Below, in pieces: positions 8,001 to 29,866 of a DNA stretch of 34,525 bases. The translations under genes were made by a program, and so were the position numbers. Origin of the DNA: Elusimicrobiota bacterium (GTDB lineage Bacteria; Elusimicrobiota; UBA8919); NCBI GenBank assembly GCA_003452965.1, contig DMMW01000010.1, forward strand, positions 1-34,525. Direction: 5' to 3'. Every line of letters begins with the position of its first letter. The stretch's first letter is position 1. Below the pieces are notes generated by a model. The model saw nothing but the letters and a program-made list of their open reading frames with translations. It was not told the DNA's origin and did not search any database.

Positions 8001-8954
8001 ATGGATTTTCAAAAACCAAAGGTTGCAATAATCGGTGCAGGAAGTGTCGGTAGTACATTTGCTTTCAGTTTGATGAATAGCGGCCTGTCAAGAGAAATTG
8101 TTCTAATTGATAGGAATGCATTACGTGCAAAAGGTGAATGCATGGATTTGAATCATGGGATAAGTTTCACTCAACCTGCAAAAATTTATTCAGCGGGATA
8201 TGAAGGTTGTGAAAATGCAGATGTTATAGTTATAACGGCAGGAGCTAAACAAATTCCGGGTCAGTCAAGAATAGATTTGGTGCAACAAAATACCGAAATA
8301 TTCAAGGATATAATTCCTAAAATAATAAAATATGCCAAAGATGCGGTAATTTTAGTTGTTTCAAATCCGGTAGATATATTAACATATGTAACTTTGAAAA
8401 TTTCCGGATTTCCTTCAAATAGAGTAATAGGCTCCGGGACTGTCTTGGATACAGCAAGATTCAAATATTTAATTAGTGAACATTGCGGGATAGATTCAAG
8501 AAATATTCATGCTTATGTTATTGGTGAACATGGAGACACAGAACTTCCCGTGTTAAGCAATGCAAACATTGGCGGAATGGTATTGTCAAAATATTGTGCA
8601 ATATGTTCCAGACATTGCGACAATAGTAGGAGCGAATTGGAAAAGATATTCAGTGAGGTTAAAAATGCTGCTTACAAAATAATTGAAGCAAAAGGTGCGA
8701 CCTATTACGCTGTTGCCTTGGCATTAGTCAAGATAACGGGCTCAATATTAAGAAATGAGAATTCTATTTTACCGGTTTCAACTCTAATTAATGATTATTA
8801 CAACATCTCTAATATATGTCTCAGTATTCCGGCTATAGTTAATAAAAACGGTGTTGAAAAATTTTTAAGAATAGAATTATCAGAACAGGAACAAACACAG
8901 CTTAAAAGTTCTGCAGATTCATTAAAAGAAATATTAGAAAAAATTAAGTTCTAA
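8001..8954 (+). CDS. ldh: L-lactate dehydrogenase.
   Basis: KVAIIGAGSVGST NAD motif. AGAKQIPGQSRIDL has the LDH-specific Gln, not the MDH Arg. IGEHGDT catalytic His. Start trimmed to ATG 8001 (7992 is also possible) because the upstream part of the long ORF is the tandem repeat. Confidence 0.85.
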   Translation: MDFQKPKVAIIGAGSVGSTFAFSLMNSGLSREIVLIDRNALRAKGECMDLNHGISFTQPAKIYSAGYEGCENADVIVITAGAKQIPGQSRIDLVQQNTEIFKDIIPKIIKYAKDAVILVVSNPVDILTYVTLKISGFPSNRVIGSGTVLDTARFKYLISEHCGIDSRNIHAYVIGEHGDTELPVLSNANIGGMVLSKYCAICSRHCDNSRSELEKIFSEVKNAAYKIIEAKGATYYAVALALVKITGSILRNENSILPVSTLINDYYNISNICLSIPAIVNKNGVEKFLRIELSEQEQTQLKSSADSLKEILEKIKF

Positions 8955-8993: not shown

Positions 8994-9052
8994 TAAAGGT
9001 GTTCCAACCTCTATACTCTATATGCTAATCTCTGTTGTTATTAGGAGGCAAA

Positions 9053-10516
9053 ATGTGGGATAAGAATGTTCTGCAAGATTTAATGAAGGAAAAATTGGCA
9101 AAATATAAATTTATTATAGTTTCCAATAGACAGCCTTATGTTTTTGATTATGTTGGAAGAAAAGTTAAATGTACAAAAACTATAGGTGGTTTGGTAACAG
9201 CAATGGATCCCGTAATGCAGGCCTCAGAAGGTGTATGGGTAGCTGCTTCTTCAGGTGATGCCGATAACAGTGTTATTGACAAAAATAATATTGTAAAAGT
9301 TCCTCCTGAAAAATCTGCATATTCAATGAAATTGATAAATCTAACAAAAAATGAAGAACAAGGTTATTATTACGGTTATTCAAATCAGGCATTATGGCCG
9401 TTAAGTCATATTGCGTATCGTCAGCCCAATTTTATGCATTCCGATTGGGAGACTTATAAAAATGTAAATAAAAGATTTGCAGAAAGTGTTCTGGAATTGT
9501 TTGATGATAAGCAGCCTTTTATTTGGTTACAGGATTATCATTTAACTCTTTGTGCAAAATACATAAAAGAAAAAAAACCGGAAGCGGTGAGTTCCCTTTT
9601 TTGGCATATACCATGGCCAAATCCGGAAGTTTTCAGAGTATGTCCTCAGAAAACTGAAATTTTAGAGGGATTGTTAGCGAATGATTTATTGGGTTTTCAT
9701 ATCAAATATCATTGTCATAATTTTCTTGAAACATGTGAAATTGAATTAGAATCAAAAGTTGACTGGGAAGAATCAGCAGTAACGTATAAGGGACATAAGA
9801 CTTTAATTAAAGATTTTCCTATAAGTGTGGATTTTGAATCATTGTCTGAAATGGCTGGTAGTGCAGATGTTACTAAAAAGGTCGAGGATTTGTCTTTTGA
9901 AATAGACCCTCCGTATGAAATTCTTGCACTGAGTATTGACAGAGTTGATTATACAAAAGGTATAATTGAAAAAATTCGGGCTGTAGATAAATTTTTAGAA
10001 AAATATCCTGAATACCATAAAAAATTCGTTTTTTTTCAAAAGGGTGCGCTTAGCAGATTACATATTAAGGCATATAAGGAATTAATAGATGAAATTCAAG
10101 CGTTGACTGAGGAAATAAACTGGAAATATCGTTCCGGCAATTGGTATCCGATTGTGCTTTTAAACAAGAAAATTGATTATACAACGCATATCGCTTTATA
10201 TCGGGCATGCGATTTGTGTTTGGTAGGTTCTCTTCATGATGGAATGAATTTGGTTGCAAAAGAATTTATCTCTGCTAATGTTGATATAAAAGGCATTCTA
10301 ATGTTATCAAAATTCACAGGTGCCGCTAGGGAACTGAAAGATGCTGTTCTGGTAAATCCGTACGATACCGAAGGTTTTGCTGATGCTATAAAAATGGCGA
10401 TTGAAATTCCGCCCAATGAAAAAAAGGAACAGATAAAAAGGATGCGCGAACATATTCAAGAAAACAATATTTATAAGTGGGCTGGCAAGTTTATAAGCAC
10501 ATTAATAAAAATATAA
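9053..10516 (+). CDS. otsA: Trehalose-6-phosphate synthase (GT20, OtsA family).
   Basis: GT20 motifs: SNRQPY, GGLVTA, LWPLSHIAYRQ, WLQDYHLTL, FWHIPWP, GFHIKYHCHNF. Start at ATG 9053 with SD AGGAGG 4 nt upstream. Confidence 0.9.
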   Translation: MWDKNVLQDLMKEKLAKYKFIIVSNRQPYVFDYVGRKVKCTKTIGGLVTAMDPVMQASEGVWVAASSGDADNSVIDKNNIVKVPPEKSAYSMKLINLTKNEEQGYYYGYSNQALWPLSHIAYRQPNFMHSDWETYKNVNKRFAESVLELFDDKQPFIWLQDYHLTLCAKYIKEKKPEAVSSLFWHIPWPNPEVFRVCPQKTEILEGLLANDLLGFHIKYHCHNFLETCEIELESKVDWEESAVTYKGHKTLIKDFPISVDFESLSEMAGSADVTKKVEDLSFEIDPPYEILALSIDRVDYTKGIIEKIRAVDKFLEKYPEYHKKFVFFQKGALSRLHIKAYKELIDEIQALTEEINWKYRSGNWYPIVLLNKKIDYTTHIALYRACDLCLVGSLHDGMNLVAKEFISANVDIKGILMLSKFTGAARELKDAVLVNPYDTEGFADAIKMAIEIPPNEKKEQIKRMREHIQENNIYKWAGKFISTLIKI

Positions 10517-10536
10517 AAGCGGGCTATAGCACATAT

Positions 10537-12009
10537 ATGATTAAATTAATAAAAAAAATGTCTTTTAAATTAAAATTGATTATAATTATTTCTTTTATAA
10601 ATATTTTGGTTATATCTATTATTTCATATATAAGCATGCTCCACATGGAAAGAAGTTTAAAAGAGAGAATGGAATTAAGAACCAAGGTGATTGTTGATGT
10701 AATAGTACATAGCATTGATGACGAGACAAAATTAAAACGAGAGGTAATAGAAGAATATTCTAACTTTATTATCAATGAACGGGAGATACAATATATAGCA
10801 TTTTTTGATAAAAGAAATAATTTAATAAGTATAGCCGGTGAACGTGGAAAAACTGAAATTAAATTTGTTACAGAAAATATATTTGATATGCAAGATAATA
10901 TATACGATGTTTACGGGGAGATAATAGGAAAAAATAAAATAAAAATAGGTTCTATAATAGTAGGATTCCCGATTACAAAGCTGAAGCAGGCAATTAATAA
11001 AGGAGTAGTAACAAGTATAATATTATGGTTAATAGCTATCGTCGTGATAATGATTTTTAATTATTCAAGTTTAACATATTTTTTACGACCTATCAGAGAT
11101 TTATTTCGTGCAGCTGAATGTGTTTCCAAAAGGGACTTTAATTGCAAGATACCTGTTTATAATGCTGATGAAATCGGAAAAATATCAGAACAATTTAATC
11201 TTATGATAGTTGAATTAGAATCTTTTTATAATTCACTTGAGGAAAAAGTTAAAATAGCAACTAATGGATTAGAAGCATCAAATGAAAAATTAAAAGAGAA
11301 AACAAAAGAGTTGGAAGAAATGGATAAAAGGAAAACAGAGTTTGTTTCCATTGTCGCCCATGATTTAAGGTCGCCTCTTACTTCAATGATGGGTTTTGCG
11401 GATACATTAAACAATGAAAATTTAAATTTAAGCGAACAAGACAAAAAAAGATATATAAATATAATACGCACTGAAACGCGGCGACTATCAAAGCTAATTT
11501 CAAATTTCCTTGATATATCTTTAATTGAAGAAAACAAAATTGTTATGGATGCTGAAAAAACAGATTTAGAAGAATTAATTAATGATGTGCTTAATTCTAT
11601 GAGCGAAAACATAATAAAAGGGATAAGAATATCGCTTGAAGTTGGAGAAGATATTCCTCAAATTTATATGGACAGAGATAGAATAATTCAAGTTTTACAG
11701 AATCTCATTATCAATGCATTAAAATATTCACCTGAGATGTCTGAGATTAAAATTATAGCCAAAAGGTTTCCCGATGAAGTAAGGATAAGTGTAATAGACC
11801 AAGGTCCTGGAATACCGGACAGGCAAAAAGAAAAAATATTTAATAAATTTAGCAAATTGAGTGAACAAAAAGCAAAAAAGGAGTCTGGAATAGGTTTAGG
11901 ATTGTTCATAGCAAAATCTATTGTTAATCTGCATGGTGGCAAAATATGGGTTGAAGATGCTGAAAATAAAGGCAGTAATTTTTCATTTACATTGCCAATA
12001 AAGGAATAA
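10537..12009 (+). CDS. Membrane sensor histidine kinase (2 TM, HAMP, HisKA, HATPase_c). No response regulator adjacent.
   Basis: H-box VAHDLRSPLTSM, N-box NLIINALKYS, G1 DQGPGIP, G2 GIGLGLFIAKSIVNLHGG. Start chosen at ATG 10537 so it does not overlap otsA. 10558 is an alternative. Confidence 0.8.
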   Translation: MIKLIKKMSFKLKLIIIISFINILVISIISYISMLHMERSLKERMELRTKVIVDVIVHSIDDETKLKREVIEEYSNFIINEREIQYIAFFDKRNNLISIAGERGKTEIKFVTENIFDMQDNIYDVYGEIIGKNKIKIGSIIVGFPITKLKQAINKGVVTSIILWLIAIVVIMIFNYSSLTYFLRPIRDLFRAAECVSKRDFNCKIPVYNADEIGKISEQFNLMIVELESFYNSLEEKVKIATNGLEASNEKLKEKTKELEEMDKRKTEFVSIVAHDLRSPLTSMMGFADTLNNENLNLSEQDKKRYINIIRTETRRLSKLISNFLDISLIEENKIVMDAEKTDLEELINDVLNSMSENIIKGIRISLEVGEDIPQIYMDRDRIIQVLQNLIINALKYSPEMSEIKIIAKRFPDEVRISVIDQGPGIPDRQKEKIFNKFSKLSEQKAKKESGIGLGLFIAKSIVNLHGGKIWVEDAENKGSNFSFTLPIKE

Positions 12010-12013: not shown

Positions 12014-13417
12014 GTGTTTAGAAAATATTTTCCGAAAGAAATAAAAATAAAACAAAGAGTTTTTGAACAGAGTATTCTAATAGCAAGTATCGTAAAATGG
12101 ACTTTATTGGCGATAATAATAGGAACTGTTGTAGGATTTTCTACCGGACTATTTTTATTTTCTTTGGATATTACAATTAGTTTTTTTAATAGATTTAATT
12201 ATTATTTTTTTATTTTACCAATAATTATTTTACTTATTGCCATAACAATAAGGAATATTTCTCCTGAATCGGAGGGACATGGCACAGAAAAAGTTATAGA
12301 ATCTATTCATAAAACACACGGACAAATTTCTTGGAAGGTTATACCCATCAAAGCCATAACTTCGATTCTTACTATTACTTTCGGAGGTTCGGTAGGTAAG
12401 GAAGGCCCTTGCGCACAGATAGGGGGTGGAATAGCTTCTTTATTCTCAAACATTTTAAAATTTCATCCAATTGACCGTAAAAAACTTGTAATTTGTGGAA
12501 TAAGTGCCGGTTTTGCTGCCGTTTTTGGAACTCCTATTGCTGGTGCGCTTTTCGGTGTTGAGGTTTTGTTCATAGGACAGATTTTTTATGAAGTATTATA
12601 TCCGTCTTTCATTGCTGGAATTGTGGGTTTTCAAACCTGCAGATTATTCGGTATAACATATTTCACACATCCGATAAATCTTGTCCCTAAATTTACTGAT
12701 TTATTTTTATTAAAAGTAGTTGCTTTTTCAATTCTTATTGGTTTGGTTGCATATTTATTCATTGAGACATTAAATTTCACCCATAAAAAGTTCAAAAAGA
12801 TTCCTTATAAAAAGAGAGCTATATTAGGTGGTTTATTAGTTGTATTTATTGTACAGGTTACTTCTCGGAGATATCTTGGACTTGGATTGGATACTATAGC
12901 GCAAGCTATCAATGGTGAACATATACCTAAACTTGCTTTTTTGTGGAAGACAATAGTAACATCTATTACATTGTCATGTGGCGGTAGTGGTGGGATTGTG
13001 ACTCCTATTTTTTACGTAGGTGCTGCAAGCGGGAACTTGTTTGCAAGGATATTTAATTTTGATTTAGGTACATTTTCAGCAATTGGTATGACATCTCTTC
13101 TTGCTGCCTGCACAAATACACCAATTGCCTCATCAGTTATGGCGATAGAGTTATTTGGACCCAAAGTGGGTATTTATTCTGCGATTTGTTCAATTATTAG
13201 TTTTACTATAGTTGGCTACAGGTCTGTATATCCAAGCCAAATATTAGGTGTTCTAAAAAGCCAGAGTTTCAAGGTGGAATTAAATAAAGAAATTAAGGAT
13301 GTAGAAAGCACGGAACAATTCAAGATGTTTTCACAACGAAATACATTAACACATATTATAATATCAATATATTTAAAGATAAAAAAATGTAGATTATTCA
13401 TGAAAAAAAAGAAATGA
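12014..13417 (+). CDS. ClC-family voltage-gated chloride channel / H+-Cl- antiporter.
   Basis: GSVGKEGP and GFAAVFGTPIAGALFGVE selectivity-filter motifs. Many TM segments. GTG start with AAGGA upstream. Its stop overlaps the ATG of the otsB 5' duplicate (ATGA). Confidence 0.8.
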   Translation: MFRKYFPKEIKIKQRVFEQSILIASIVKWTLLAIIIGTVVGFSTGLFLFSLDITISFFNRFNYYFFILPIIILLIAITIRNISPESEGHGTEKVIESIHKTHGQISWKVIPIKAITSILTITFGGSVGKEGPCAQIGGGIASLFSNILKFHPIDRKKLVICGISAGFAAVFGTPIAGALFGVEVLFIGQIFYEVLYPSFIAGIVGFQTCRLFGITYFTHPINLVPKFTDLFLLKVVAFSILIGLVAYLFIETLNFTHKKFKKIPYKKRAILGGLLVVFIVQVTSRRYLGLGLDTIAQAINGEHIPKLAFLWKTIVTSITLSCGGSGGIVTPIFYVGAASGNLFARIFNFDLGTFSAIGMTSLLAACTNTPIASSVMAIELFGPKVGIYSAICSIISFTIVGYRSVYPSQILGVLKSQSFKVELNKEIKDVESTEQFKMFSQRNTLTHIIISIYLKIKKCRLFMKKKK

Positions 13418-13479
13418 AATATTTTTTTAAAGAATTAGGAAAAATAAAAGGGTACAAAATATTAAGAAAATTATGAAAA
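13414..13479 (+). pseudogene. Duplicated 5' end of otsB (first ~14 codons, then diverged and closed by a stop).
   Basis: 13414-13451 is identical to 13703-13740 (ATGAAATATTTTTTTAAAGAATTAGGAAAAATAAA). Similarity continues with a 12-nt deletion. Confidence 0.6.
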
Positions 13480-13507
13480 ATCATGGTTTTTCACTAGACG
13501 CGATATT

Positions 13508-13531
13508 TTCATCAAGGCATGCCTTGATGAA
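13508..13531. promoter_or_regulatory. 24-bp perfect palindrome TTCATCAAGGCA|TGCCTTGATGAA inside the ~225-bp insert between the otsB 5' duplicate and otsB. Candidate dimeric-regulator operator or hairpin.
   Basis: Read directly and checked base by base. Confidence 0.5.
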
Positions 13532-13702
13532 CGGCTCAAAAAACACTAAAATTTCAAAACTCACTTGCTATGCTCGTTCAGACAGTTGAAATTTTTTAAC
13601 GGTTTTTTATCGCCTAAATATCGCTATATCGTTCAAAACCAGATTTTTCGATAATGTAATTATTCTTGAAAGATGTGAATTATTTTTTAAAAAAAATAAA
13701 AA

Positions 13703-14473
13703 ATGAAATATTTTTTTAAAGAATTAGGAAAAATAAAGAAAAAAATAAAAGGATATAAAATATTACTCTGCCTGGATTATGATGGTACTCTAACCCCCAT
13801 AGTTAAAAAGCCAGAATATGCCAAACTCGGGCAAAACATTAAGCATGCTTTAGAAAACATTAAAAGTAATAAAAATATTATATTGGCTATAATATCAGGC
13901 AGGACTTTATCAGGAATAAAAAAATTAGTCAATCTTAGAAATGTTATTTATGCAGGCAATCACGGTTTTGAAATAGAGATAGGCAGGGATGTTTTTATCC
14001 ATCGGGGACTCAAGGAAGCTATTCCGATAATCAGCAAAATAAAAAAAGCGATAAGTAAAAAAATAAAAGGAATACGGGGTGCATTTATTGAGGATAAAGA
14101 ATTTACATTAAGCATTCATTGGCGGTTGGTCAAAAAAAAATATTTAAATAAGTTGTTTCTAATAATTAAAAATATTATACATAATAATAGTAAAATAAGA
14201 TTAACCATAGGTAAAAAGGTATGGGAAATCAGGCCTAATATTGCTTGGGATAAGGGTAAAGCCGTTGAATTAATATATTCAAAAGTAAATAAAAATAATA
14301 ATTTAAAAATCATATATATAGGTGATGATACAACTGATGAAGATGCTTTCTCGGTATTGAAAAAAGAAATAACAATAAAAATCGGTAAATCAAATAAGTC
14401 AAAAGCAAAATATTATTTAAAAAAACAATCAGAAATAAAAAATATTCTCAATTTATTGAGTAATATAGGCTGA
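13703..14473 (+). CDS. otsB: Trehalose-6-phosphate phosphatase (HAD superfamily, OtsB).
   Basis: HAD motif I LDYDGTL. Motifs III/IV KG...IYIGDDTTDEDAF. 256 aa. Confidence 0.85.
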   Translation: MKYFFKELGKIKKKIKGYKILLCLDYDGTLTPIVKKPEYAKLGQNIKHALENIKSNKNIILAIISGRTLSGIKKLVNLRNVIYAGNHGFEIEIGRDVFIHRGLKEAIPIISKIKKAISKKIKGIRGAFIEDKEFTLSIHWRLVKKKYLNKLFLIIKNIIHNNSKIRLTIGKKVWEIRPNIAWDKGKAVELIYSKVNKNNNLKIIYIGDDTTDEDAFSVLKKEITIKIGKSNKSKAKYYLKKQSEIKNILNLLSNIG

Positions 14474-14484
14474 TAATATATTTT

Positions 14485-15132
14485 ATGAATAATCCGTTTA
14501 TTTTCTTTACACGTTTCAATCTCACCGAGCTTTTAGGGATAAAGGCAAAGAACATAATAGAACTTCTTGAAGGCATTAAATCTGTTCCGGGTTCATCCAT
14601 TTATTTTCATACGCACAGATATATTCAGCAGCACCATTTTTTATCTCCCGAGCCACCGAATGATTTTGCCTATTGGGTTACAAATATTTTACAGGAAGAT
14701 AAACTTGGCGAGCGGTTGGCATCAATTGATATAATACAATTCAAAAAAATTTCAGATATTAGAGAAATATTTATTACAATAATAGAACAATACATAAACA
14801 GAAATCCGTCAAGCAGACAAGCATATGAAGGGGAACAGTTCCACTTTATGAAATCAATCTCATTTATAATGAAAACCCAATATTCTGCAAAGGATTTGAA
14901 GGAATTTCTCGAAATTGTAAAAAAAGTATCTATACACTCCATATATTTCCATATGTTTGAAGCGCGGCTTCGTCTTGAAAAAGTGGAAAATGATTTTTCG
15001 TACTGGATGACAACTGAGTTAAGAGAGGGGGATTTAGCGGATAAGATATCAAAACTGGACCCATATACTCAAACATTGGAATCATTAAGAAATGAAATAA
15101 TATTTTTGATTGAAAAGAGAATAAATGGCTAA
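14485..15132 (+). CDS. Hypothetical protein made of two ~90-aa internal repeats. Its end overlaps the treT start by 8 nt.
   Basis: Repeat 1 SSIYFHTHRY...NDFAYWVTNILQEDKLGERLASIDIIQFKK. Repeat 2 HSIYFHMFEARL...NDFSYWMTTELREGDLADKISKLD. No family recognised. Confidence 0.55.
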   Translation: MNNPFIFFTRFNLTELLGIKAKNIIELLEGIKSVPGSSIYFHTHRYIQQHHFLSPEPPNDFAYWVTNILQEDKLGERLASIDIIQFKKISDIREIFITIIEQYINRNPSSRQAYEGEQFHFMKSISFIMKTQYSAKDLKEFLEIVKKVSIHSIYFHMFEARLRLEKVENDFSYWMTTELREGDLADKISKLDPYTQTLESLRNEIIFLIEKRING

Positions 15133-16357
15133 AATAAATGATTATATTAAAATAGTAGGTGAGGATATAATAGAAGAGTTAAAAATCCTTAGTGAAAGAT
15201 TAAAAGGTAAAGTTATCCAAAATATCAATTCTACCTCTGTAGGTGGAGGTGTTGCAGAGATATTGAACAGAATAGTTCCGCTAATGAATGAACTTGGAGT
15301 GGATACCCGTTGGGATTTGATAAAAGGCGGCGAAAGATTTTTCAATATAACAAAGAGATTTCACAATACGCTGCATGGCATACCAGCCGAAATAAGCGAC
15401 GAAGAATTTGATTATTTTTTACAAGTGGAAAACGAGAACGCACAAGCGATAAATTTTTATGGCGATGTGATATTGATTCATGACCCGCAACCAATCGGGC
15501 TTATCAACAGAAAAAAAGATTTCGGTAATAATAAGAAGTGGATATGGAGATGCCATATTGACATTTCCCATCCCGAAATTAAGGTATGGGATTTTTTAAA
15601 GCAGTTTATTAATTCATACGATGCATCAATATTTTCTGCTCCGGTGTTTTCAAAGGAACTTCCCATAAAACAATTCTTAATCTCACCATCTATAGATCCG
15701 CTTTCCGATAAAAACAAAGAACTTGATGCATCTACTATTGATTCTGTTTTATATAAATATAAAATTACCAAAGATAAACCGATTATAACACAGATTTCAC
15801 GCTATGATATATTGAAAGACCCGCTTGGAGTAATAGATGCGTTCAAATTAGTACGGAAACATATTGATTGTCAATTAATACTTGCTGGAAATACAGCTAC
15901 TGATGATCCGGAACATGACAAGGTTTTAAATATGGTAAAAGAGAAAGCTGGAAATGATTCGGATATTCATATACTTGTAATAGAACCTGCAAATAATGAT
16001 ATTGAAATAAACGCTTTACAGCGTGCATCGGATATAGTTTTACAAAAATCACTTAAGGAAGGCTTCGGACTTACAGTTTCTGAAGCACTTTGGAAGAAAA
16101 AACCTGTAATTGCAGGGGCTGTTGGTGGAATTCCGCTACAAATTACGCATAAACATTCTGGAATTCTTACCCATACTGTGGAAGGAACGGCTTATTGGAT
16201 AAAACAACTCATTAATTCGCCTGAATATGCCAAAAAACTCGGTCTAAACGGGCATGAACACATAAAGAACAATTTTCTTCTAACTCGCCATATTCTCGAA
16301 TACTTTCTTTTATTCACTTCACTTTATCACAGCGGTGACATCATCCACCTTAATTAG
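15125..16357 (+). CDS. treT: Trehalose glycosyltransferring synthase (TreT, GT4; NDP-glucose + glucose -> trehalose).
   Basis: Collinear identity blocks with Pyrococcus/Thermococcus TreT: INSTSVGGGVAEIL, FFNITKRFHNTLHG, WRCHIDIS, PSIDPLSDKN, KPIITQISRYD, QRASDIVLQKSLKEGFGLTVSEALWKKKPVIAGAVGGIPLQI. Confidence 0.85.
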   Translation: MAKINDYIKIVGEDIIEELKILSERLKGKVIQNINSTSVGGGVAEILNRIVPLMNELGVDTRWDLIKGGERFFNITKRFHNTLHGIPAEISDEEFDYFLQVENENAQAINFYGDVILIHDPQPIGLINRKKDFGNNKKWIWRCHIDISHPEIKVWDFLKQFINSYDASIFSAPVFSKELPIKQFLISPSIDPLSDKNKELDASTIDSVLYKYKITKDKPIITQISRYDILKDPLGVIDAFKLVRKHIDCQLILAGNTATDDPEHDKVLNMVKEKAGNDSDIHILVIEPANNDIEINALQRASDIVLQKSLKEGFGLTVSEALWKKKPVIAGAVGGIPLQITHKHSGILTHTVEGTAYWIKQLINSPEYAKKLGLNGHEHIKNNFLLTRHILEYFLLFTSLYHSGDIIHLN

Positions 16358-16431
16358 GGTCTGCTGAAAAACTCCATGCCTACACTAAAGCTTCGGCAGG
16401 CAGGCAGCATCCCCCTGATGAATATTCCTAT

Positions 16432-17127
16432 CTAATCTGTATTTTTAATACTCAGGATTTCTTTCAAAGGAACTATTTCATATCCTTTCTTCTTAATTCC
16501 GGTTATTATCTCGGGCAACGCTTCCGCAGTCAGTTTCTTTTCATGCATTAATATTATAGCACCAGGTTTAATTTTATTTAGATATTTTTCTACAAGTTGG
16601 TCCTTTGACATTTTTTTCCAATCGAACCCAAAAGACCAATTAACAATAATATATTTTCTTTCTTTTGCCACCTCTTCAACAACAGGGGAATTAAAACCGT
16701 TCGGCATTCTTAAAAACAGCGGTTTAACATCTGTTATATCCTTTATCATCTCCTCTGTCCTATCAATCTCATCGATTAATATTTTTTTAAATTCGTTTTT
16801 TGTTTTCTTTTTTCTTAAGTTATAAAAACTTAAATGTGAATAGGTATGATTTCCAATTTCCTGCCCGTATTGTATATATTTATTCGCTGAGTTCGGAAAT
16901 CGTGCCATATTAGAACCAAGAATAAAAAAGGTTGCTTTGATTTTCTCCTTTTTTAAAATTTCAAATATTTTATCATGTACAAACGGATTAGGTCCGTCAT
17001 CAAAAGTTAATGTAACCCATTTTTTTGTCGGCAATCCATCGGAATAAAATTTACCGTATTTTAGTTCTTCTGCTTGTAAATTTATACTTAAAAGTAAAAT
17101 ATAAAATATTAATACTATTTTTTTCAT
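16432..17127 (-). CDS. Secreted polysaccharide deacetylase (CE4 / NodB homology domain).
   Basis: Signal peptide MKKIVLIFYILLLSINLQA. TFDDGP and HTYSHLS motifs. Start trimmed to ATG 17127 so it does not overlap the upstream gene. Confidence 0.8.
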   Translation of the reverse strand: MKKIVLIFYILLLSINLQAEELKYGKFYSDGLPTKKWVTLTFDDGPNPFVHDKIFEILKKEKIKATFFILGSNMARFPNSANKYIQYGQEIGNHTYSHLSFYNLRKKKTKNEFKKILIDEIDRTEEMIKDITDVKPLFLRMPNGFNSPVVEEVAKERKYIIVNWSFGFDWKKMSKDQLVEKYLNKIKPGAIILMHEKKLTAEALPEIITGIKKKGYEIVPLKEILSIKNTD

Positions 17128-17134
17128 TTTTTGA

Positions 17135-17497
17135 TTAAACAAGGTAATTCCGTAATTCATCCTCAGAAAAACCAAAGTAATGACCAATTTCATGAATCAC
17201 CGTTTTTATTATCTGGGTTTCCATTTCTTCTTGTTCTGTGAAAGCCATTACAAAACTTTCTTTATATAATTCAATTCTCGTCGGTTCACTCTGTATATTG
17301 AAAATGGAACGTTTATTGTGCGGAACACCTATGAATACACCAAATACAATACTGTTCTTAAATTTATCCTTAACAGCAGCCGGCACACTTTCTCTTGGAA
17401 GTAACCTAATATTCTCTTTTTCTAATATTTTTTTAAATTTCCTGGGAATTCTATTAAAGGCTTCTTCAATAATTTTTTCAAATTGATTCATATCCAT
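17135..17497 (-). CDS. Small zincin-like metallopeptidase (Zincin_1 / former DUF1025 family).
   Basis: 120 aa with a C-terminal HEIGHYFG HExxH motif, as in the ~120-aa 'possible zinc metallopeptidase' family. Confidence 0.6.
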   Translation of the reverse strand: MDMNQFEKIIEEAFNRIPRKFKKILEKENIRLLPRESVPAAVKDKFKNSIVFGVFIGVPHNKRSIFNIQSEPTRIELYKESFVMAFTEQEEMETQIIKTVIHEIGHYFGFSEDELRNYLV

Positions 17498-17549
17498 ATT
17501 TAATCAGAAATATTTAATTAAGGACAGCTATCCCTAATTATCCCTCTAA

Positions 17550-20500
17550 TCATTCATGTTCGTGTTTTTTTTCAAGTTCCGACATAGCTTCTTTAACATC
17601 TTTTAAATGTTTGCGGCTTTCAAATACCGACATAAGGCTGTATACACAAGGCACTACAAACAGGGTAAGCAGTGTTGAAAGGAACACACCACCTATGATA
17701 ACCACAGCCATAGGTACTCTTGTTTCTGCACCCGGTCCTAATGCAAGTGCGGGCGGGATTGCGGCGGCAATAGTTGAAAAGGATGTCATTATAATAGGTC
17801 TTAATCTTACAGGACAAGCTTCCATAAGCGCTTCCCTAACATCTTTCCCGCTTTCTCTCTTTTGGTTTGTAAAATCTACAAGTAAAATAGAATTTTTTTT
17901 CACAATACCCATTAATAAAATTATACCTATAGCGCTATACATATTCAACGATTTTCCGGTAATGAGCATAGCGAATATAGCACCTGAAATACTAAAGGGA
18001 AGAGCAATAAGTACCGTGAAAGGATGAATAAAACTATTAAACTGCGTTCCTAAAACCATATATGCTACAAATATACCGAGAATCAATGCTATATATAAAC
18101 TATTAAACGAGTCTTTAAATGTCTGAGCGCTTCCAGAAAAAACCAGCTTATATTCTTCTGGCAGAATTCTTTTACCCAAAGCTTGTACAATTTTAAGCGC
18201 TTCACCCTGAGATTTACCCAACGGAATGTTTGCATACATCCTTATTGCACGTTCTCGGTTTTTACGCGTTATTGAAAGCAAAGTTGGCTTTTCTACTATA
18301 CTTACAACTTCAGAAAGCCGTATAAGTTCACCCCGATTGTTTCGTATCCATATTTTACTTATATCGGAAACATTGCGTCTGTCTTTTTCGACAAGCTGGA
18401 CTCTTACATCATATCGCCTACCACCTTTTGAATATTTGCCGGAACGTACTCCGCCGATTAACGCATTAATAGTATTACCTATCGCGGAAATACTTACACC
18501 ATGGTTTGCAGCTTTTTGTCTATCGGGGACTACATTTACTTCAGGCATTCCAAGAACATAATCAGAATTTACGTCGGTTAAAAATTCTGTTTTTTCCATT
18601 TCTTCTTCCATTATTCTGCTGAAATTTGCAAGCTTATCCCAATCGGGACCATTAATAGTAAACTCAACAGGGAATCCACGCCTTCCCCCCAGACTCATAA
18701 GCGAAGGATCCTGAATAACTACTTTTTCAACACCTGCAATAGTCCTTAAACTTTTGCGTAAAATAGGTATTAATTCTTGTTGTGTCAATGGTTGTTTTTT
18801 ACTTTTATCTATAGGGCGCTGATTGTATGGTTTTAAGGTAAGCATTATTTGACCGGTATTTACCATATCACCGCCAATATTTGTAAAATATGCTTCTATT
18901 TCCTTAATATTTATTAGTTGCTCTTCAATATTTTTAAAAATATCATCAGTATACTCTAATGATGAACCTACTTTTGTTTCCATCCTAACCATTAATCTAC
19001 TTATATCCTGTGCTGGTGTAAACTCGGTTTTAACTAATTTTACGAGCAGCAATGAACCAACAAAGAAAATTATGGAGGTAAGCACAACTTTCAAACGATT
19101 ATCTAAACACCAATTTAATAGTTTTGAATAAATTCTTTTAAAAGATAACATAAAACTATCTATTATTTTCCCAAGTTGCGTAACATGCCCAACTTGTAAG
19201 AACTGAGCGCAAAACATCGGGGTAAGTGTCAAAGCTCCTAATAATGAAATTGCAACTGCAACAGAGATAGTAACTCCAAACTGGAGAAAATAGCGACCAA
19301 TTACTCCTTCCATAAAAATAACAGGTACAAATATCGCAAGTATTGCAGCTGTTGCAGCAATTGCGGCAAATGTAATTTCACGTGCACCCCATATAGCCGC
19401 TTTTACCTTAGTTTCGCCTGCTTCTCTGTGTCTCGCAATATTTTCAAGCATCATAATAGCGTCATCAACCACTATACCTATCACTAACGAAAGTCCTAAA
19501 AGTGTAAACATATTAAGCGTAAACCCGAGAATATACATTACAAAAAGTGTTCCGCATAATGACATAGGTATAGTTAAAAATACATTTAATGCTGAACTGA
19601 ACGAGCCTAAAAACAACCAGCTTACCATGCCTGTGAGTAAAATAGATAATATCATCACAAAATACATTTCATGAATAGATTCCTCAATAACGTTAGTTGT
19701 ATCAAAGCGTATTGCCAAAACCAGACCTTCAGGCAGATATTTGTTCATATTATCAAGTTTCTTTTTAACTTCTTTAGCTACCTTGACTGCATTTGTACCG
19801 CGTTGTTTTCGTATACCCATGCCTACAGTTGTGACTCCCATAGCGCGTGAAATCCTGCGGATATTTTCAGTGCCTTCTTCAACTTCTGCAACATCTCCAA
19901 TAGTGAATTTTTTCCAGATAGGTGAACCTCTACGTGCGGGAATTATCAATGACGCAAACTCCTCAACAGAGCCAGCTTCACCCACTACCCGTATATTCAT
20001 TTCCTTCTTACCGGTATCTATATAACCTGCAGGTACTTCTGCATGTTCGGATTGAATTGCTGAAGTAATATCATCTATTGTCATTTCGTTGTTTCGCATT
20101 TTTTCGGCATTCAACCATACTCTAAGATTGGGTTCGGCAAAACCTCCCATAAAAACCTCACCTACACCGGGAGTAGTTGCCAGTTGGTCAACTATTTGAT
20201 TCTTTGTATATTCCATAAGATATTTCAACGGTTTGTTTCCAGACAAAGAAATCCATAATATCGGCTGGTCTTCAGTATTGCTTTTTGAGATAATAGGCGG
20301 TTCTGCATCGCGAGGCAGGTTCCTCTGACTGCGTGCTACTGAGCTCTGAACATCCTGCAGAGCAACATCTATATTTTTATTAATATCAAAATAAACAGTA
20401 ACTCTTGAACGACCTCTTTGTGAACTAGATAAAACTTCCTGAACACCTTCAATACCCATAACCGCATCTTCCAAAGAATTAGTAACTTCCGTCTCCATAA

Positions 20501-26847: not shown

Positions 26848-27238
26848 GGGGGCTGGGACTATGCTCTTGACTTTTTATTGTAGTATGTCCCCCAAGGTCC
26901 ATAGTAAACAACGAATGGTATTTTGGGGAATACAATACCTAAATAACGTCAAAAAAAATGAAAAATCAATGAAAACACAACTAATTGCTGAAGCAAACGT
27001 ATGGTGGAAATTTGGTAAAAACTTTTCTTACATATCAAAAGAATTACAAAGGAATTGACCCTACCCCATTAAATTTTACTAATACTAAATCCTATCTAAA
27101 AATTACTTGACAATTTATGAATATTATTATAAGACATATATGTAATATAAATGATAGTATACACGGTAAATGCGAGCAAATAATAGCATACTCATAAGTA
27201 TCCTACTCGTGAGTATTCTAACTAAAAGGGTGCGGTTT

Positions 27239-27574
27239 ATGGAGCATAAATTCATAAATAGAAAATCTGAAATTGATTCATTAGAAAAAAAGTGGGAAGA
27301 GAAAAAAAGCCACTTGATTATTGTTTACGGCAAAAGGCGTGTAGGTAAAACGGAAATCATAAAACAGTTTATTAAAAATAAACCCTCTGTATATTTCTTG
27401 GCTGACAAACGGACTATAAACGAACAACTCAAAGAATTAGGCAGGTTATTCGGCGCTCATTTCAAAGATGCCCTACTTGAAAAGAACGGATTTACCGACG
27501 ATATGCTGAAACTGGCGAAACAAGAACGTGTTTACTTAGTCAACAAGAACGAATTGATTGAGATGCAAGAGTAA
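27239..27574 (+). pseudogene. N-terminal Walker-A fragment of an archaeal-type ATPase (PF01637 ATPase_2 / DUF234-associated), ending prematurely.
   Basis: FINRKSEIDSLEKKW...LIIVYGKRRVGKTEIIKQF is the canonical N-terminus of ~450-aa ATPases. Here the ORF stops at 111 aa. Confidence 0.5.
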
Positions 27575-27666
27575 TAAGACAGTATAGGTCGCGACAGAGC
27601 AACAGTTTATAAGTTAAAGATTGATTCGTTGCATTAGTATTTAAAGAAATTGGACGAGCTGACGAG

Positions 27667-27891
27667 ATGGGGTCGGGTGTCAGGAAACTCTATAAATATT
27701 GTAAAATCAACTCGGGATTAAATCCCCAGTTGATAGAAGAGGATATATTTAAAATTATTATTCCATTAGATGAGCAAGTTGGTGAGCAAGTCCTAAAGAT
27801 ACTTAAATACTGTAAAATCTCAAGAAAGAAGCAAGAAATATCCGATATGTTATATCCCGACGAAGGAACGGAAATCTTTCACTTTATATGA
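27667..27891 (+). pseudogene. Short ORF (74 aa), possibly a remnant of the C-terminal region of the same truncated ATPase gene.
   Basis: Its position right after the ATPase fragment is the only support. No motif recognised. Confidence 0.2.
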
Positions 27892-27960
27892 TAAAAGATG
27901 AAAAACCAAAAAGACCCCGTTCCTTGATTTTTCACTGTAAAAGAGTATAATCAAATCATT

Positions 27961-29436
27961 ATGAAAAAGTATAAAATATTCGTGAGTGGTGTGCAGAAAG
28001 AACTCAAAGCAGAACGCCGGGCAGTGAAAGATTCGATTCTCGGTGATGTCTTGCTCTCCGAGTATTTTGACGTTTTCTTGTTTGAAGATTCACCGGCTAA
28101 AAGCCATTCAGCAGAAAAGGCATATCTTGAAGAAGTCCGTAAAGGCAATATCTATATCAGCATTCTTGGCGATAAATACGGCAGCACGGGCAAGAATAAA
28201 ATTTCTCCTACCGAAGCAGAATTTCGGGAAGCAAAAACCAAGCATAAAGACATTTTAATTTATATAAAAGGTGAAAACTCCGTTGATAAAAACCGTGAAG
28301 CAGGCGTACAGAAACTTATTAAGGAGATTAAAGATTCCAAGGTGGGTTATTGTTATCGCAGATTTAATTCCATCAGCGAATTAACCAACCTTGTTTATGA
28401 AAGTTTGATTGTCTTTTTAAAAGAGAAAGGAGAAGTCGGCAGAGCCGTATTTGACCAGCGGATATGCGACAGTGCGACTTTCTCCGATATTGACGATGAA
28501 AAAGTTAAGTGGTTTTTAAAAACAGCACGAGCCAAACGGAATTTTCCACTTGCTCTTGATTCTTCAACACAAGATGTTTTTACTCATCTAAAACTTTTGA
28601 AAGACGGCAAATTGACCAACGCCGCAGTTTTATTATTCGGCAAAGAACCGAGAAAGTTTTTTGACCAGGCAAAAATCAAATGTATTCATCTGCCAAGTAC
28701 CGAAGTAGAGAAACCGTTCACATCATATCAAATTTACGAAGGGAATTTATTTGAGCAGGTGGACAAGGCAGTTAGTTTTGTATTTGATATACTCAAATTC
28801 CCTGTTATTCAGCAGGAACATACTGTCCAGGTATCTCGGCCCCGTGAAATTCCAGTATTCGTGGTTCAGGAAGCCATCGTCAACGCAGTTGCTCACCGCG
28901 ACTATAACACGACGTCCTCTGTTCAGGTAATGGTATTTCTTGACCGAGTGGAAATATGGAATTCTGGGACTTTACCAGCCCACTTAAAAATAGAAGACCT
29001 CAAAAAACCACACGCATCTCACCCGACAAATACTTTATTAGCCACAGTAATGTTTTTTGCCGATTACATTCAACAAGCAGGTTCGGGAACATTGGAGATG
29101 CTCAAACAGTGTAAGGCAAAGGGACTTCCCGAGCCGGACTTCGTATCAGTGCGGAATCTTGAATTCAAAACAATATTAGCCAGAGATATTTTTACGGAAG
29201 AGGTCTTAAATAAACTGGGATTGAATGAACGCCAGTTAAAAGCAGTAAAATATGTAAAAGAAAAAGGCAGAATAACGAATAAAGAATATCAGTTAAATTT
29301 TGGTGTTAAGAAAAGACAAGCAACAGATGATTTAAAAGATTTAGAAAATAAAGAGGTCTTAATTAAGATTGGATCTACTGGAAGGGGAACATATTACAAG
29401 GTTAATGGGGCGATAATGGGGCGAAAGGGGCAATAA
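27961..29436 (+). CDS. DUF4062 - AlbA_2/Schlafen-like - HATPase_c_4-like (RecG-C-terminal-like) three-domain protein. Candidate defence or regulatory protein.
   Basis: N-terminus KIFVSGVQKELKAERRAV...YLEEVRKGNIYISILGDKYGS fits the DUF4062 pattern (xFxSS..L..ER......P..FE......YG). Middle region KVKWFLKTARAKRNFPLALD...AAVLLFGKEP is Schlafen/AlbA_2-like. C-terminal region AIVNAVAHRDY...IWNSGTLP...QAGSGTLEM matches the HATPase_c_4 family. Domain assignments come from memory of the family consensus. Confidence 0.65.
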   Translation: MKKYKIFVSGVQKELKAERRAVKDSILGDVLLSEYFDVFLFEDSPAKSHSAEKAYLEEVRKGNIYISILGDKYGSTGKNKISPTEAEFREAKTKHKDILIYIKGENSVDKNREAGVQKLIKEIKDSKVGYCYRRFNSISELTNLVYESLIVFLKEKGEVGRAVFDQRICDSATFSDIDDEKVKWFLKTARAKRNFPLALDSSTQDVFTHLKLLKDGKLTNAAVLLFGKEPRKFFDQAKIKCIHLPSTEVEKPFTSYQIYEGNLFEQVDKAVSFVFDILKFPVIQQEHTVQVSRPREIPVFVVQEAIVNAVAHRDYNTTSSVQVMVFLDRVEIWNSGTLPAHLKIEDLKKPHASHPTNTLLATVMFFADYIQQAGSGTLEMLKQCKAKGLPEPDFVSVRNLEFKTILARDIFTEEVLNKLGLNERQLKAVKYVKEKGRITNKEYQLNFGVKKRQATDDLKDLENKEVLIKIGSTGRGTYYKVNGAIMGRKGQ

Positions 29437-29455
29437 AGGGGCGATAATGGGGCAG
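29404..29455 (+). repeat. Five evenly spaced GGGG tracts (loops 7, 5, 7, 7 nt) inside a degenerate ~11-bp tandem repeat (TAATGGGGCGA)x5. Canonical G-quadruplex-forming motif on the coding strand, spanning the last 11 codons and stop of the DUF4062 gene.
   Basis: Read directly: GGGG at 29407, 29418, 29427, 29438 and 29449. Confidence 0.7.
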
Positions 29456-29697
29456 AGCATTTAAAAAGACAGTATGTTTTTCCGATATAAAAACAGGAAA
29501 GCGCATTGGTCTCGATAAAGGCGGCCACTGGATTATCCTTCGTAGCAATAATAAAGTGGGAAAAGTTGTAGAGAAATAAAAAGAAAAATGTAAAGCGTCC
29601 ACATTTTCCTAATACACAATATGACACACAGATAAAGAACCTAAAATTAGGATTATCATTTCAAAACATAGGTCCCAAAATGACATTTATACAAGAG

Positions 29698-29866
29698 TGA
29701 CCCCACCCCCGAAAACTGTACCAGTTGAAATTAGAGTTTAGAAATGGTAAACTAAACTCATGGGGGTATGGTTATGAAACAGGGCAGGTACAAGGAAGAG
29801 CAGATTATCGGGATATTGAAGGAAGCAGAAGCCGGCATAAAGATAGATAAATTATGCCGTAAATAA
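29698..29866 (+). mobile_element. Remnant of an IS3-family (IS407-group-like) insertion sequence: a putative left inverted repeat (TGACCCCACCCCCGAAAACTG...) plus the first 30 codons of orfA (HTH transposase_8), truncated.
   Basis: 29774-29866 translates to MKQGRYKEEQIIGILKEAEAGIKIDKLCRK*, which matches the N-terminus of IS407-like OrfA (MKKRFT-EEQIIGFLKEAEAG-P-KELCRKHG...). It has an SD-like GGGGGT and an upstream TGA...CCCC terminus typical of IS3 IRs. Confidence 0.55.

What the first reader, a model, noticed from the sequence alone, without database searches (positions are those of the whole stretch)
13405..13770. otsB 5' end duplicated around a ~225-bp insert that carries a 24-bp perfect palindrome
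The ClC stop overlaps an ATG (ATGA) followed by 38 nt identical to the true otsB start. That copy diverges and terminates, and the intact otsB lies 289 nt further on. The ancestral arrangement was evidently a ClC-otsB translationally coupled overlap, into which ~225 bp of non-coding DNA was inserted with a ~50-65-bp duplication of the target. The insert contains TTCATCAAGGCATGCCTTGATGAA, a 24-bp perfect palindrome, and an AT-rich stem followed by a T-run. It may have brought otsB a new promoter, operator or terminator, so that otsB is now regulated independently. It could also be a small non-autonomous mobile or recombination element.
Basis: seen in the sequence. Interest (0 to 1): 0.6.

Follow-up and report, generated by a model that had tools for sequence, protein, structure and literature searches.

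The report
Foldback repeat inserted at ClC–otsB junction
A roughly 220-base non-coding DNA repeat that folds back on itself landed where two overlapping genes met in a groundwater Elusimicrobia genome, and a 72-84-base duplication of that junction kept both genes intact; a second copy elsewhere in the same genome shows it is a dispersed, probably mobile element rather than a regulator's binding site.

Summary
The ClC stop overlaps an ATG (13414). The 72 nt at 13393-13464 are repeated at 13682-13765 (84 nt, including a 12-nt indel). About 217 bp lie between the copies and hold a perfect 24-nt palindrome (13508-13531).

Five related Elusimicrobia contigs have ClC and otsB overlapping by 1-4 nt with no spacer. 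The spacer is therefore a derived insertion. It is identical in at least 9 independent assemblies.

New here: the insert is a repeat. A second copy lies in the same MAG (GCA_001800565.1, contig MGVQ01000041) in the 5' UTR of a Gfo/Idh/MocA gene. It is about 91% identical over a 186-nt core bounded by terminal inverted repeats.

Of the 16 substitutions between the two cores, 10 form 5 compensated base pairs (0 of 200,000 random placements reach 5). Three of those pairs are in the palindrome, which is perfect in both copies but differs in sequence. Structure is conserved and sequence is not, which argues against an operator.

There is no Rfam hit, no consensus terminator, no promoter shared by both copies, and no transposase in the sequence available.

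Best reading: a new MITE-like foldback repeat, inserted in one step with an unusually long target duplication that rescued both genes. The mobility mechanism and any regulatory effect are untested. Interest is moderate.

The parts
12014..13417 (+). ClC chloride-channel gene. Its native 3' end is intact, and its stop TGA overlaps the relic otsB ATG.
   Evidence: ORF list; Pfam Voltage_CLC E = 2.4e-75; 69-70% aa identity to ClC of L002, L003, L066 and L068, through to the C-terminus
13393..13464 (+). Left copy of the duplicated junction (72 nt): the last 21 nt before the ATG, plus the first 51 nt of otsB. It carries a 12-nt deletion relative to the right copy.
   Evidence: the repeat finder D1/D2; gapped alignments, 0 of 1000 shuffles reach the score
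13414..13476 (+). Relic otsB start: a 20-codon ORF that ends inside the left inverted repeat of the insert and lacks the DYDGT catalytic motif.
13465..13681 (+). Inserted non-coding repeat element (~217 bp). Homology to the second copy runs 13458-13681, so 13458-13464 (AATATTA) is shared between the element's end and the target.
   Evidence: Local alignment with L070 5013-5226; BLAST 84.7% over 216 nt; absent from all relatives' junctions
13470..13655 (+). Foldback core of the element (186 nt). Its ends pair (13470-13494 with 13631-13655, terminal inverted repeats). Inside it is Y-shaped.
   Evidence: MFE -56.5 kcal/mol, z = -5.3 (+ strand RNA); -60.2, z = -5.8 (- strand); DNA parameters z = -5.8. 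Consensus fold with copy 2: 59 pairs, 100% paired, 5 compensated
13500..13508 (+). Stem P2, 5' arm GCGATATTT. It pairs with AAATATCGC at 13616-13624.
13508..13531 (+). Perfect 24-nt palindrome, the side hairpin P3 (loop CATG). In copy 2 it reads TTCATCCCGACATGTCGGGATGAA: three base pairs are changed and all three are compensated.
   Evidence: (I8)
13548..13595 (+). AT-rich hairpin P5 (13548-13557 with 13586-13595, 28-nt loop), flanked by an A-run and T-runs. Between the copies it has one compensated pair and a 9-nt loop indel.
   Evidence: does not meet the terminator consensus
13682..13765 (+). Right copy of the duplicated junction (84 nt): 21 nt of A/T-enriched former ClC 3' end, now the otsB leader, plus the first 63 nt of the functional otsB.
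   Evidence: Its length matches relatives: L001 N-terminus MKYLFDKWNSISKKIKGLKILLCFDYDGTL
13703..14473 (+). Intact otsB (trehalose-6-phosphate phosphatase), followed by DUF5752 (14485-15132) and a TreT-like glycosyltransferase (15125-16357).

Best explanation
A ~217-224-bp non-coding foldback repeat was inserted into what had been an overlapping ClC/otsB gene junction (ATGA type). The element has a 186-nt core closed by terminal inverted repeats of about 25 bp. Inside, the core is Y-shaped, with a 24-nt perfect-palindrome side hairpin and a long AT-rich hairpin. It is a dispersed, MITE-like, non-autonomous element of this Elusimicrobia genome.

The insertion came with a direct duplication of 72-84 bp of the junction. 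The left copy keeps the ClC stop codon and leaves a dead 20-codon otsB stub. The right copy supplies a complete otsB start. Both genes therefore survived an insertion that would otherwise have destroyed one of them.

Shown: the duplication; the derived nature of the insert; a second copy in the same MAG; the conserved foldback, with nearly all substitutions compensated.

Inferred:
(i) The event was a single step. The two junction copies abut the element ends exactly, and short similarities occur at both joints (AATATTA on the left, GTGAATT/GTAGATT on the right). The most likely mechanism is microhomology-guided template switching or illegitimate recombination, not a canonical staggered-cut transposition.
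(ii) The consequence is loss of ClC-otsB translational coupling, with a very stable structure (about -56 kcal/mol as RNA) now sitting between the cistrons. If co-transcribed, it would behave like an intercistronic REP- or Correia-type stem-loop, affecting mRNA processing or stability. It is less likely to act as a terminator or an operator.
For: Derived insertion: relatives L002, L003, L066, L068 and L069 have ClC-otsB with a 1-4 nt overlap, and L001 and L004 have otsA-otsB with ATGA. No OtsB lies between 62% and 100% identity in 5.8 billion proteins, so no closer relative is available.

Duplication: (0 of 1000 shuffles).

Real, and found in every assembly examined: 9 identical contigs.

Repeat family: phmmer of the 38-aa ORF inside the insert hit P0121 (E = 5.7e-6). 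Its contigs come from the same samples. The DNA aligns over window 13458-13681 with L070 5013-5226. The same locus is on MGVQ01000041 of GCA_001800565.1, the MAG that holds the window (L089 6981-7195).

Structure: z-scores of -5.3 to -5.8. 59 of 59 consensus pairs are kept in both copies, and 5 are compensated. 10 of the 16 substitutions fall in those pairs, and 0 of 200,000 random placements give 5 or more.

Not coding: the reading frame shared by the two copies breaks after about 28 codons, because of a 1-nt indel.

Not a terminator.

Tolerated inside a transcript: copy 2 lies between an 11/12 sigma-70-type promoter match (L070 4957-4985) and the GAGG-ATG of the downstream gene.

Border instability: a strain variant has a perfect 34-bp tandem duplication across the left end of copy 2 (L091). 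A different foldback insert in L086 is also flanked by two copies of a ~23-bp gene junction.
Against: Only two copies are known. The rest of the genome could not be scanned: the window's species gave no near-identical hit in genome contigs, and its locus was not returned by the metagenome-contig scan.

No transposase or integrase lies in the window, none appears among the Pfam families listed for the called genes on the contigs carrying copy 2, and no parent IS with matching ends was found.

A 72-84-bp target duplication is not what any known transposase makes. Copy 2 has no significant flanking repeat (228 of 1000 shuffles reach the score); at most it has a trivial TA.

The compensated changes could partly come from hairpin-templated mutation (quasi-palindrome correction) rather than from selection.

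The microhomologies at the joints are short, lie in A/T-rich DNA, and were defined from only one other copy.

No expression data exist, so the effect on otsB is conjecture.
Confidence: 0.7

Rival explanations
1. The element is a functional structured RNA: either a cis-acting leader that controls the downstream gene, or a small RNA gene present in two paralogous copies. On this reading its structure is kept by selection on the RNA, and it was recruited upstream of otsB.
For: Nearly all substitutions between the copies are compensatory. Both copies have the same orientation as the flanking genes and end 19-21 nt before a start codon (window 13681 to 13703; L070 5226 to 5246). Both downstream operons concern sugar metabolism. 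The one uncompensated paired change (G to A at 13502) would be a G.U pair on the minus strand.
Against: No Rfam family reaches threshold. The best permissive hit is E = 1.9 at 13 bits against a gathering score of 100. The element is absent upstream of otsB in seven relatives, unlike riboswitches and leaders. No promoter or terminator is conserved in both copies. With n = 2, orientation and spacing carry little weight.
Confidence: 0.12
2. Two separate events. First, a ~85-95-bp tandem duplication of the ClC-otsB junction, which is neutral because both genes stay intact. Later, an ordinary transposition of a MITE, with a short TSD, into the new spacer.
For: Tandem duplications at the borders of this element do occur (34 bp in L091). 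TA dinucleotides flank the inverted repeats in both copies. A possible 8-nt TTAAGAAA / TTGAAAGA pair lies near the ends.
Against: The element sits exactly between the end of the left copy (13464) and the start of the right copy (13682). A later insertion has no reason to hit the duplication joint exactly. The putative TSDs are imperfect and are not adjacent to the inverted repeats.
Confidence: 0.12
3. The insert is a regulatory DNA module. The palindrome would be an operator for a dimeric regulator, with a new promoter and/or terminator, so that otsB-DUF5752-treT is controlled separately from ClC.
For: A promoter-like match at 13524-13552 has its -35 hexamer in the right palindrome arm. A lineage-specific histidine kinase was inserted in the same operon.
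Against: The palindrome differs at 6 of 24 positions in copy 2 while staying perfect. The -35 is therefore not conserved. The half-site is not enriched in the window (5 matches against 3.8 expected). No terminator consensus is found. Copy 2 lies downstream of an existing strong promoter match.
Confidence: 0.04
4. Relic of a site-specifically integrated element whose attachment region carried a replacement otsB 5' end (as prophage e14 does for icd). The body of the element would since have been deleted, leaving attL and attR (CIME-like).
For: Long imperfect direct repeats flank the insert and reconstitute the target gene's start.
Against: No integrase lies in the window. The second copy sits in an unrelated context without otsB or ClC sequence and without significant flanking repeats. 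The whole insert is accounted for by a 217-bp repeat unit.
Confidence: 0.02

Closest known systems
Bacterial MITEs and foldback intergenic repeats (Correia/CREE of Neisseria, ERIC/IRU of enterobacteria, RUP of Streptococcus pneumoniae, Nezha of cyanobacteria). This comparison rests on my own knowledge of these families.
   Same: Small (~190-220 bp) and non-coding. Has terminal inverted repeats, and the whole unit folds into a stable hairpin-like structure. More than one copy per genome. Sits between genes and inside transcription units, which is where Correia and ERIC elements are co-transcribed and can alter mRNA processing and stability.
   Different: No sequence similarity to any of them: there is no Rfam, plasmid or phage hit. 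Only two copies have been seen. No cognate IS is known. No fixed short TSD; instead there is a 72-84-bp duplication at one site and none at the other. The shape is a Y with a perfect-palindrome side hairpin, rather than a single long hairpin.
REP/BIME intercistronic palindromes of enterobacteria (for example malE-malF). From my own knowledge.
   Same: A stable palindromic structure placed between two cistrons of an operon. The expected effect is differential mRNA stability or decoupling, not termination.
   Different: REPs are 20-40-bp units with a conserved GT[AG]G head, are present in hundreds of copies, and are linked to RAYT transposases. None of this was seen here.
Integrative elements that carry a replacement end of their target gene (prophage e14 or phage 21 in icd; tRNA-targeting islands; CIMEs). 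From my own knowledge.
   Same: The insert is flanked by imperfect direct repeats tens of bp long. The target gene stays functional, while a dead fragment is left at the other end.
   Different: No integrase. The element is only ~217 bp. Its second copy is elsewhere and has no att-like repeat.
Microhomology-mediated template switching (copy-choice illegitimate recombination; FoSTeS/MMBIR-type events) and quasi-palindrome template-switch mutation. From my own knowledge.
   Same: The topology fits: an ectopic segment is copied in and the target is re-copied from a point upstream of the departure point. There are short similarities at both joints, perfect palindromes, and a tandem duplication at the element border in a strain variant.
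   Different: These are mutational mechanisms, not element families. The donor site and the intermediates cannot be shown from sequence alone.

Membership tests
MITE (miniature inverted-repeat transposable element) | Small (under ~500 bp) and without coding capacity | tested here: met
   ~217 bp. Only ORFs of 38 codons or fewer, and the frame is not conserved between copies.
MITE (miniature inverted-repeat transposable element) | Terminal inverted repeats | tested here: met
   13470-13494 pairs with 13631-13655: 21 pairs, kept in both copies, with one bulge-shift compensation.
MITE (miniature inverted-repeat transposable element) | Short target-site duplication of fixed length at every copy | tested here: not met
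   Window copy: a 72/84-bp duplication. L070 copy: no significant flanking repeat (228 of 1000 shuffles). A TA on both sides is possible but trivial in A/T-rich DNA.
MITE (miniature inverted-repeat transposable element) | Multiple dispersed copies in the genome | tested here: inconclusive
   Two copies in one MAG. The whole genome could not be scanned.
MITE (miniature inverted-repeat transposable element) | Cognate autonomous IS with the same ends | not testable with these tools
   No transposase domain in the window's ORFs of 110 aa or more, and none among the Pfam families listed for called genes on the loci carrying copy 2. The rest of the genome is unavailable.
Intrinsic (Rho-independent) terminator | G+C-rich stem of 5 or more pairs, loop of 3-8 nt, followed by a T-run | tested here: not met
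   0 sites in window 13200-13900 and in L070 4880-5300. The palindrome is not followed by a T-run on either strand. The P5 stem is A/T-rich with a 19-28-nt loop.
Palindromic operator of a dimeric transcription factor | Half-site sequence conserved between sites | tested here: not met
   TTCATCAAGGCA in the window against TTCATCCCGACA in copy 2 (3 of 12 differ per half-site), with symmetry kept. No enrichment of the half-site in the window.
Known RNA families (Rfam 15: riboswitches, leaders, sRNAs, ribozymes) | Covariance-model score at or above the family's gathering threshold | tested here: not met
   0 matches at gathering thresholds over the whole window. Best permissive match is 13 bits against a gathering score of 100.
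Cis-regulatory leader or riboswitch of otsB | Conserved upstream of orthologous genes in relatives | tested here: not met
   None of L001-L004 and L066-L069 has any spacer or similar sequence before otsB.
Integrated element with att duplication (e14/CIME type) | Tyrosine or serine recombinase, and the same att repeat at each copy | tested here: not met
   No recombinase in the window. Copy 2 lacks otsB/ClC sequence and flanking repeats.

The most novel reading that the evidence does not exclude
The element is not a transposase-driven MITE. It would be a structure-selected nucleic-acid module that spreads by a copy-choice (template-switch) route at replication forks. That route would produce target duplications of variable length: 72-84 bp here, ~23 bp for a second foldback insert in L086, and a 34-bp border duplication in L091. 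This would let it colonise even overlapping gene junctions without killing either gene. It might also act as a portable 5'-leader placed about 20 nt before start codons.
Probability: 0.1. Interest if true: 0.7.

Novelty: new member of a known kind. Interest (0 to 1): 0.35.

Why it matters
The locus shows how an insertion into two overlapping, translationally coupled genes can be tolerated. A duplication of the junction regenerates the stop of one gene and the start of the other, and leaves a dated 'fossil' of the old overlap.

It adds an undescribed foldback repeat family to Elusimicrobia, a phylum for which one literature search here found no relevant paper on such elements. With only two copies, it gives an unusually clean signal that the fold, not the sequence, is what is kept.

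It also splits an osmoprotection operon (otsA-HK-ClC | otsB-DUF5752-treT) with a very stable structure. That is a testable case of operon remodelling by a small repeat.

None of this overturns current understanding. The element most likely belongs to the broad class of bacterial MITE- or REP-like repeats.

Tried and rejected
(1) Other copies in the window: blastn with word size 7 found none. The half-site search gave chance level.

(2) Rfam at gathering and permissive thresholds: nothing.

(3) Plasmid and phage collections, blastn 'distant' mode: no match.

(4) Viral contigs, four patterns (18-mer palindrome, inverted-repeat pattern, two conserved 24-25-mers): no hits or only chance hits.

(5) Metagenome contigs with ATCAAGGCATGCCTTGAT: 30 hits, all unrelated. 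Most are centres of other perfect hairpins, which is expected because a palindromic 18-mer has only 9 free positions. The window's own locus was not returned, so this scan says nothing about the copy number in this genome.

The window's species gave no near-identical hit there.

(7) Protein route: the search for homologous proteins with P0121 found only its own cluster. Cluster members P0248 and P0249 are strain variants of the same locus.

(8) Empty site for copy 2: P0207's contig has a scaffold gap there. The 99%-identical variant L081 also carries the element.

(9) Covariance model R1 over 577 kb of session sequence: only the two loci.

(10) Tandem duplication of a 289-bp unit, with the insert being decayed otsB: rejected, because the insert has no similarity to otsB 13766-13990.

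(11) Long flanking repeat at copy 2: not significant.

(12) A coding small protein: rejected, because a 1-nt indel breaks the frame between the copies.

(13) Assembly artefact: rejected.
Full report
CONTEXT
The window is a contig of an uncultured Elusimicrobia bacterium from Rifle aquifer groundwater. The OtsB protein is encoded identically on MGVQ01000085 of GCA_001800565.1 and on about 20 other contigs from ENA and JGI samples.

Pfam assigns the genes as follows:
- otsA, 9035-10516
- a HAMP/HisKA/HATPase histidine kinase, 10477-12009
- a ClC channel, 12014-13417
- otsB, 13703-14473
- DUF5752, 14485-15132
- a TreT-like glycosyltransferase, 15125-16357

No transposase or integrase domain is present in the ORFs of 110 aa or more across the 34.5 kb.

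The ClC stop (TGA, 13415-13417) overlaps an ATG at 13414.

The repeat finder gives 13393-13448 against 13682-13737 (56 nt, 89%) and 13440-13464 against 13741-13765 (25 nt, 92%). The two blocks are offset by 12 nt. A gapped alignment joins them into one duplication of 72 nt (left) and 84 nt (right). It scores 49.5, against 23.4 +/- 3.0 in shuffles, and 0 of 1000 shuffles reach it.

The duplication covers 21 nt upstream of the ATG and the first 51/63 nt of otsB. Weaker similarity further upstream, into the ClC 3' end, is only marginal (16 of 500 shuffles).

The left copy is a 20-codon stub (13414-13476) that ends before the DYDGT motif. The right copy has the ancestral length: L001 reads ...SKKIKGLKILLCFDYDGTL and the window reads ...KKKIKGYKILLCLDYDGTL. 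The 12-nt gap is therefore a later deletion in the dead copy.

The 24-nt palindrome at 13508-13531 is perfect and is the longest in the window. Only 2 of 200 Markov-simulated windows reach 24 nt.

Region 13300-13800 is base-for-base identical in nine contigs from different samples and assemblers. It is therefore neither a misassembly nor a rare allele.

2. THE SPACER IS A DERIVED INSERTION
Related Elusimicrobia contigs were reached through OtsB (57-62% aa identity). They show the order otsA-ClC-otsB-DUF5752-treT.

ClC and otsB overlap by 1 nt (TAATG) or 4 nt (ATGA) in L002, L003, L066, L068 and L069. In L001 and L004, otsA and otsB overlap by ATGA. None of them has a spacer or any sequence like the insert.

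No OtsB between 62% and 100% identity exists among 5.8 billion clustered proteins. The insertion cannot be dated more finely.

3. THE INSERT IS A REPEAT ELEMENT
DNA searches for further copies failed or were uninformative.
- Plasmids, phages and viral contigs gave nothing.

The route that worked went through protein. A phmmer search of the spurious 38-codon ORF inside the insert, against 1.84 billion representatives, hit a 47-aa 'protein', P0121 (79% identity over 28 residues, E = 5.7e-6). Its contigs come from the same Rifle samples as the window.

The DNA aligns with the window over 13458-13681 against L070 5013-5226 (BLAST 84.7% over 216 nt). The same locus is on MGVQ01000041 of GCA_001800565.1 (L089 6981-7195). 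That is the MAG that contains the window.

There the element lies between a metallophosphoesterase gene and a Gfo/Idh/MocA oxidoreductase gene. It is downstream of an 11/12 match to the sigma-70 promoter consensus (L070 4957-4985) and ends 19 nt before the GAGG-led ATG. In the window it ends 21 nt before the otsB ATG.

Homology between the copies stops at the borders of the otsB duplication (13464/13465 and 13681/13682). The unit that was inserted is therefore exactly the stretch between the two junction copies.

4. ANATOMY AND CONSTRAINT
The 186-nt core (13470-13655) has paired ends: 13470-13494 with 13631-13655. It then has:
- stem P2, GCGATATTT/AAATATCGC (13500-13508 with 13616-13624)
- a three-way junction carrying the palindrome hairpin P3
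- a long A/T-rich arm (GGC/GCC, A6C/GT6, then P5 at 13548-13557 with 13586-13595)

It folds far better than shuffles on either strand and with either parameter set (z = -5.3, -5.8, -5.8).

Between the two cores there are 16 substitutions in 180 aligned positions, plus a 1-nt and a 9-nt indel. The 9-nt indel is in the P5 loop. All 59 consensus pairs are standard pairs in both copies.

Ten of the substitutions form five doubly changed, still-paired positions: three in P3, one at the tip of P5 (A-U to G-C), and one in the A6C stem (C-G to U-A). Random placement of 16 substitutions never gave 5 or more compensated pairs in 200,000 trials.

A sixth change is compensated by a bulge shift: G/T at 13475 with CG/CA at 13649-13650. 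The only uncompensated paired change (G to A at 13502) gives A.C on the plus strand but G.U on the minus strand.

The palindrome is therefore kept as a hairpin, not as a sequence: TTCATCAAGGCATGCCTTGATGAA in the window and TTCATCCCGACATGTCGGGATGAA in copy 2.

One caveat applies. Hairpin-templated repair (quasi-palindrome correction) can produce such symmetry without selection. That is plausible for the short-loop P3. It is less plausible for pairs that lie 29-175 nt apart.

5. WHAT IT IS NOT
- It matches no Rfam family.
- It has no consensus terminator in either copy.
- It has no conserved promoter. The one promoter-like match (13524-13552) has its -35 hexamer in the palindrome arm that differs in copy 2.
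- The palindrome is not a shared operator.
- It is not coding, because a 1-nt indel shifts the frame between copies.
- It is not a decayed tandem copy of otsB.
- It is not a prophage or island scar with an integrase.

6. HOW IT MOST LIKELY AROSE AND WHAT IT DOES
Any simple insertion into an ATGA overlap, or into codon 21 of otsB, would destroy a gene. Here the element is bracketed precisely by two copies of the junction. A single event that both inserted the element and re-copied 72-84 bp of target is the most economical reading.

The joints show short similarities. AATATTA is shared by otsB (...AAAATATTA|CTC) and the element's left end (AATGTTA in copy 2). GTGAATT at the right end resembles both the copy-2 end (GTGATTT) and the ClC 3' end (GTAGATT). 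This is the signature expected if a nascent strand left the target, copied the element elsewhere, and returned upstream of where it had left. This step is inferred, not shown.

Copy 2 has no comparable flanking repeat. The long duplication is therefore not a fixed property of the element. It may simply be the rare outcome that selection allowed at this site.

Two side observations fit a tendency toward border duplications:
- a 34-bp perfect tandem duplication across the left end of copy 2 in one strain (L091)
- a different foldback insert at a patatin/metallophosphoesterase junction in strain L086, also flanked by two diverged copies of the ~23-bp junction

Functionally, translational coupling of otsB to ClC is lost. 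The otsB leader has become even more A/T-rich and has no Shine-Dalgarno sequence.

If transcription reads through, about -56 kcal/mol of structure now separates the cistrons. Read-through is suggested by the position of copy 2 inside a 5' UTR and by the lack of a terminator. By analogy with REP/BIME and Correia elements (my own knowledge), the expected effect is on mRNA processing or stability and on the relative expression of the two operon halves. No data here test this.

7. COMPARISON, NOVELTY AND VERDICT
The element behaves like a bacterial MITE or foldback repeat. It meets the criteria for size, inverted repeats and non-coding nature. The fixed short TSD is not met. Copy number (two seen) is inconclusive, and a parent IS could not be tested.

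It is best filed as a new, so far two-member, family of that broad kind, with an atypical insertion footprint. A single literature search found no relevant paper on MITEs in Elusimicrobia.

The reconstruction of the ancestral overlap and of an insertion with duplication is supported. The 'mobile element' alternative is favoured over the 'operator/promoter/terminator' alternative.

Interest is moderate (0.35). This is a neat, well-documented case of operon remodelling with clean covariation, but it is not outside known biology.

Noticed in passing
window 10477-12009 (compare L002 1152-4001, L066 150-3001, L068 152-3004): The histidine kinase between otsA and ClC is absent in relatives, where otsA abuts ClC directly. 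It is a second lineage-specific insertion into the same trehalose/ClC operon. No response regulator was seen in the window.
   Followed up: partly
L086 3555-3696 (empty site at L082 ~8790-8800): A strain variant carries a different, GC-richer foldback insert of ~142-175 bp (ends GTCATTCTGAGC ... GTTCAGCATGAC) at the patatin|metallophosphoesterase junction. It is flanked by two diverged copies of the ~23-bp junction, which preserve the upstream stop and the downstream start. This is the same kind of footprint as at ClC-otsB.
   Followed up: partly
L091 ~231-298 (same locus as L070 5001-5034): A perfect 34-bp tandem duplication, ATGATTTTAGGTAATGTTAAAAATATTATTAAAA, spans the flank and the left end of element copy 2 in one JGI sample. 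It is a population polymorphism at the element border.
   Followed up: yes
L082/L085 ~12800-19500 versus L083/L084: An island of about 6.5 kb is present in some strains and absent in others, downstream of the aminotransferase gene. It carries an AlwI-type restriction enzyme, two D12-class methyltransferases and a LexA/S24-like protein.
   Followed up: no
L070 5246-6517 and 6610-8001: The operon downstream of element copy 2 encodes a very conserved Gfo/Idh/MocA oxidoreductase (71-76% identity across phyla; some sources call it D-galacturonate reductase) and a class-III aminotransferase.
   Followed up: no
L031 3004-3021, L042 609-626, L051 735-752, L025 319-336: Unrelated metagenome contigs share not only ATCAAGGCATGCCTTGAT but also the flanks (G)TAGG...CCTA(C), inside longer perfect hairpins with otherwise different stems. 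This is more than expected for chance hits.
   Followed up: no
L080 ~220-305: The RIFOXYD2_FULL_34_15 scaffold has a run of N inside the 5' part of the orthologous Gfo/Idh/MocA gene, with unrelated high-GC sequence upstream. The region orthologous to copy 2 is therefore unassembled there.
   Followed up: partly
window 27170-34169: A cluster of defence-like genes: a short ATPase_2/AAA fragment, a DUF4062 + HATPase_c_4 protein, a PLD-nuclease/SNF2-helicase fusion of 1079 aa, and a YhcG PDDEXK nuclease.
   Followed up: no
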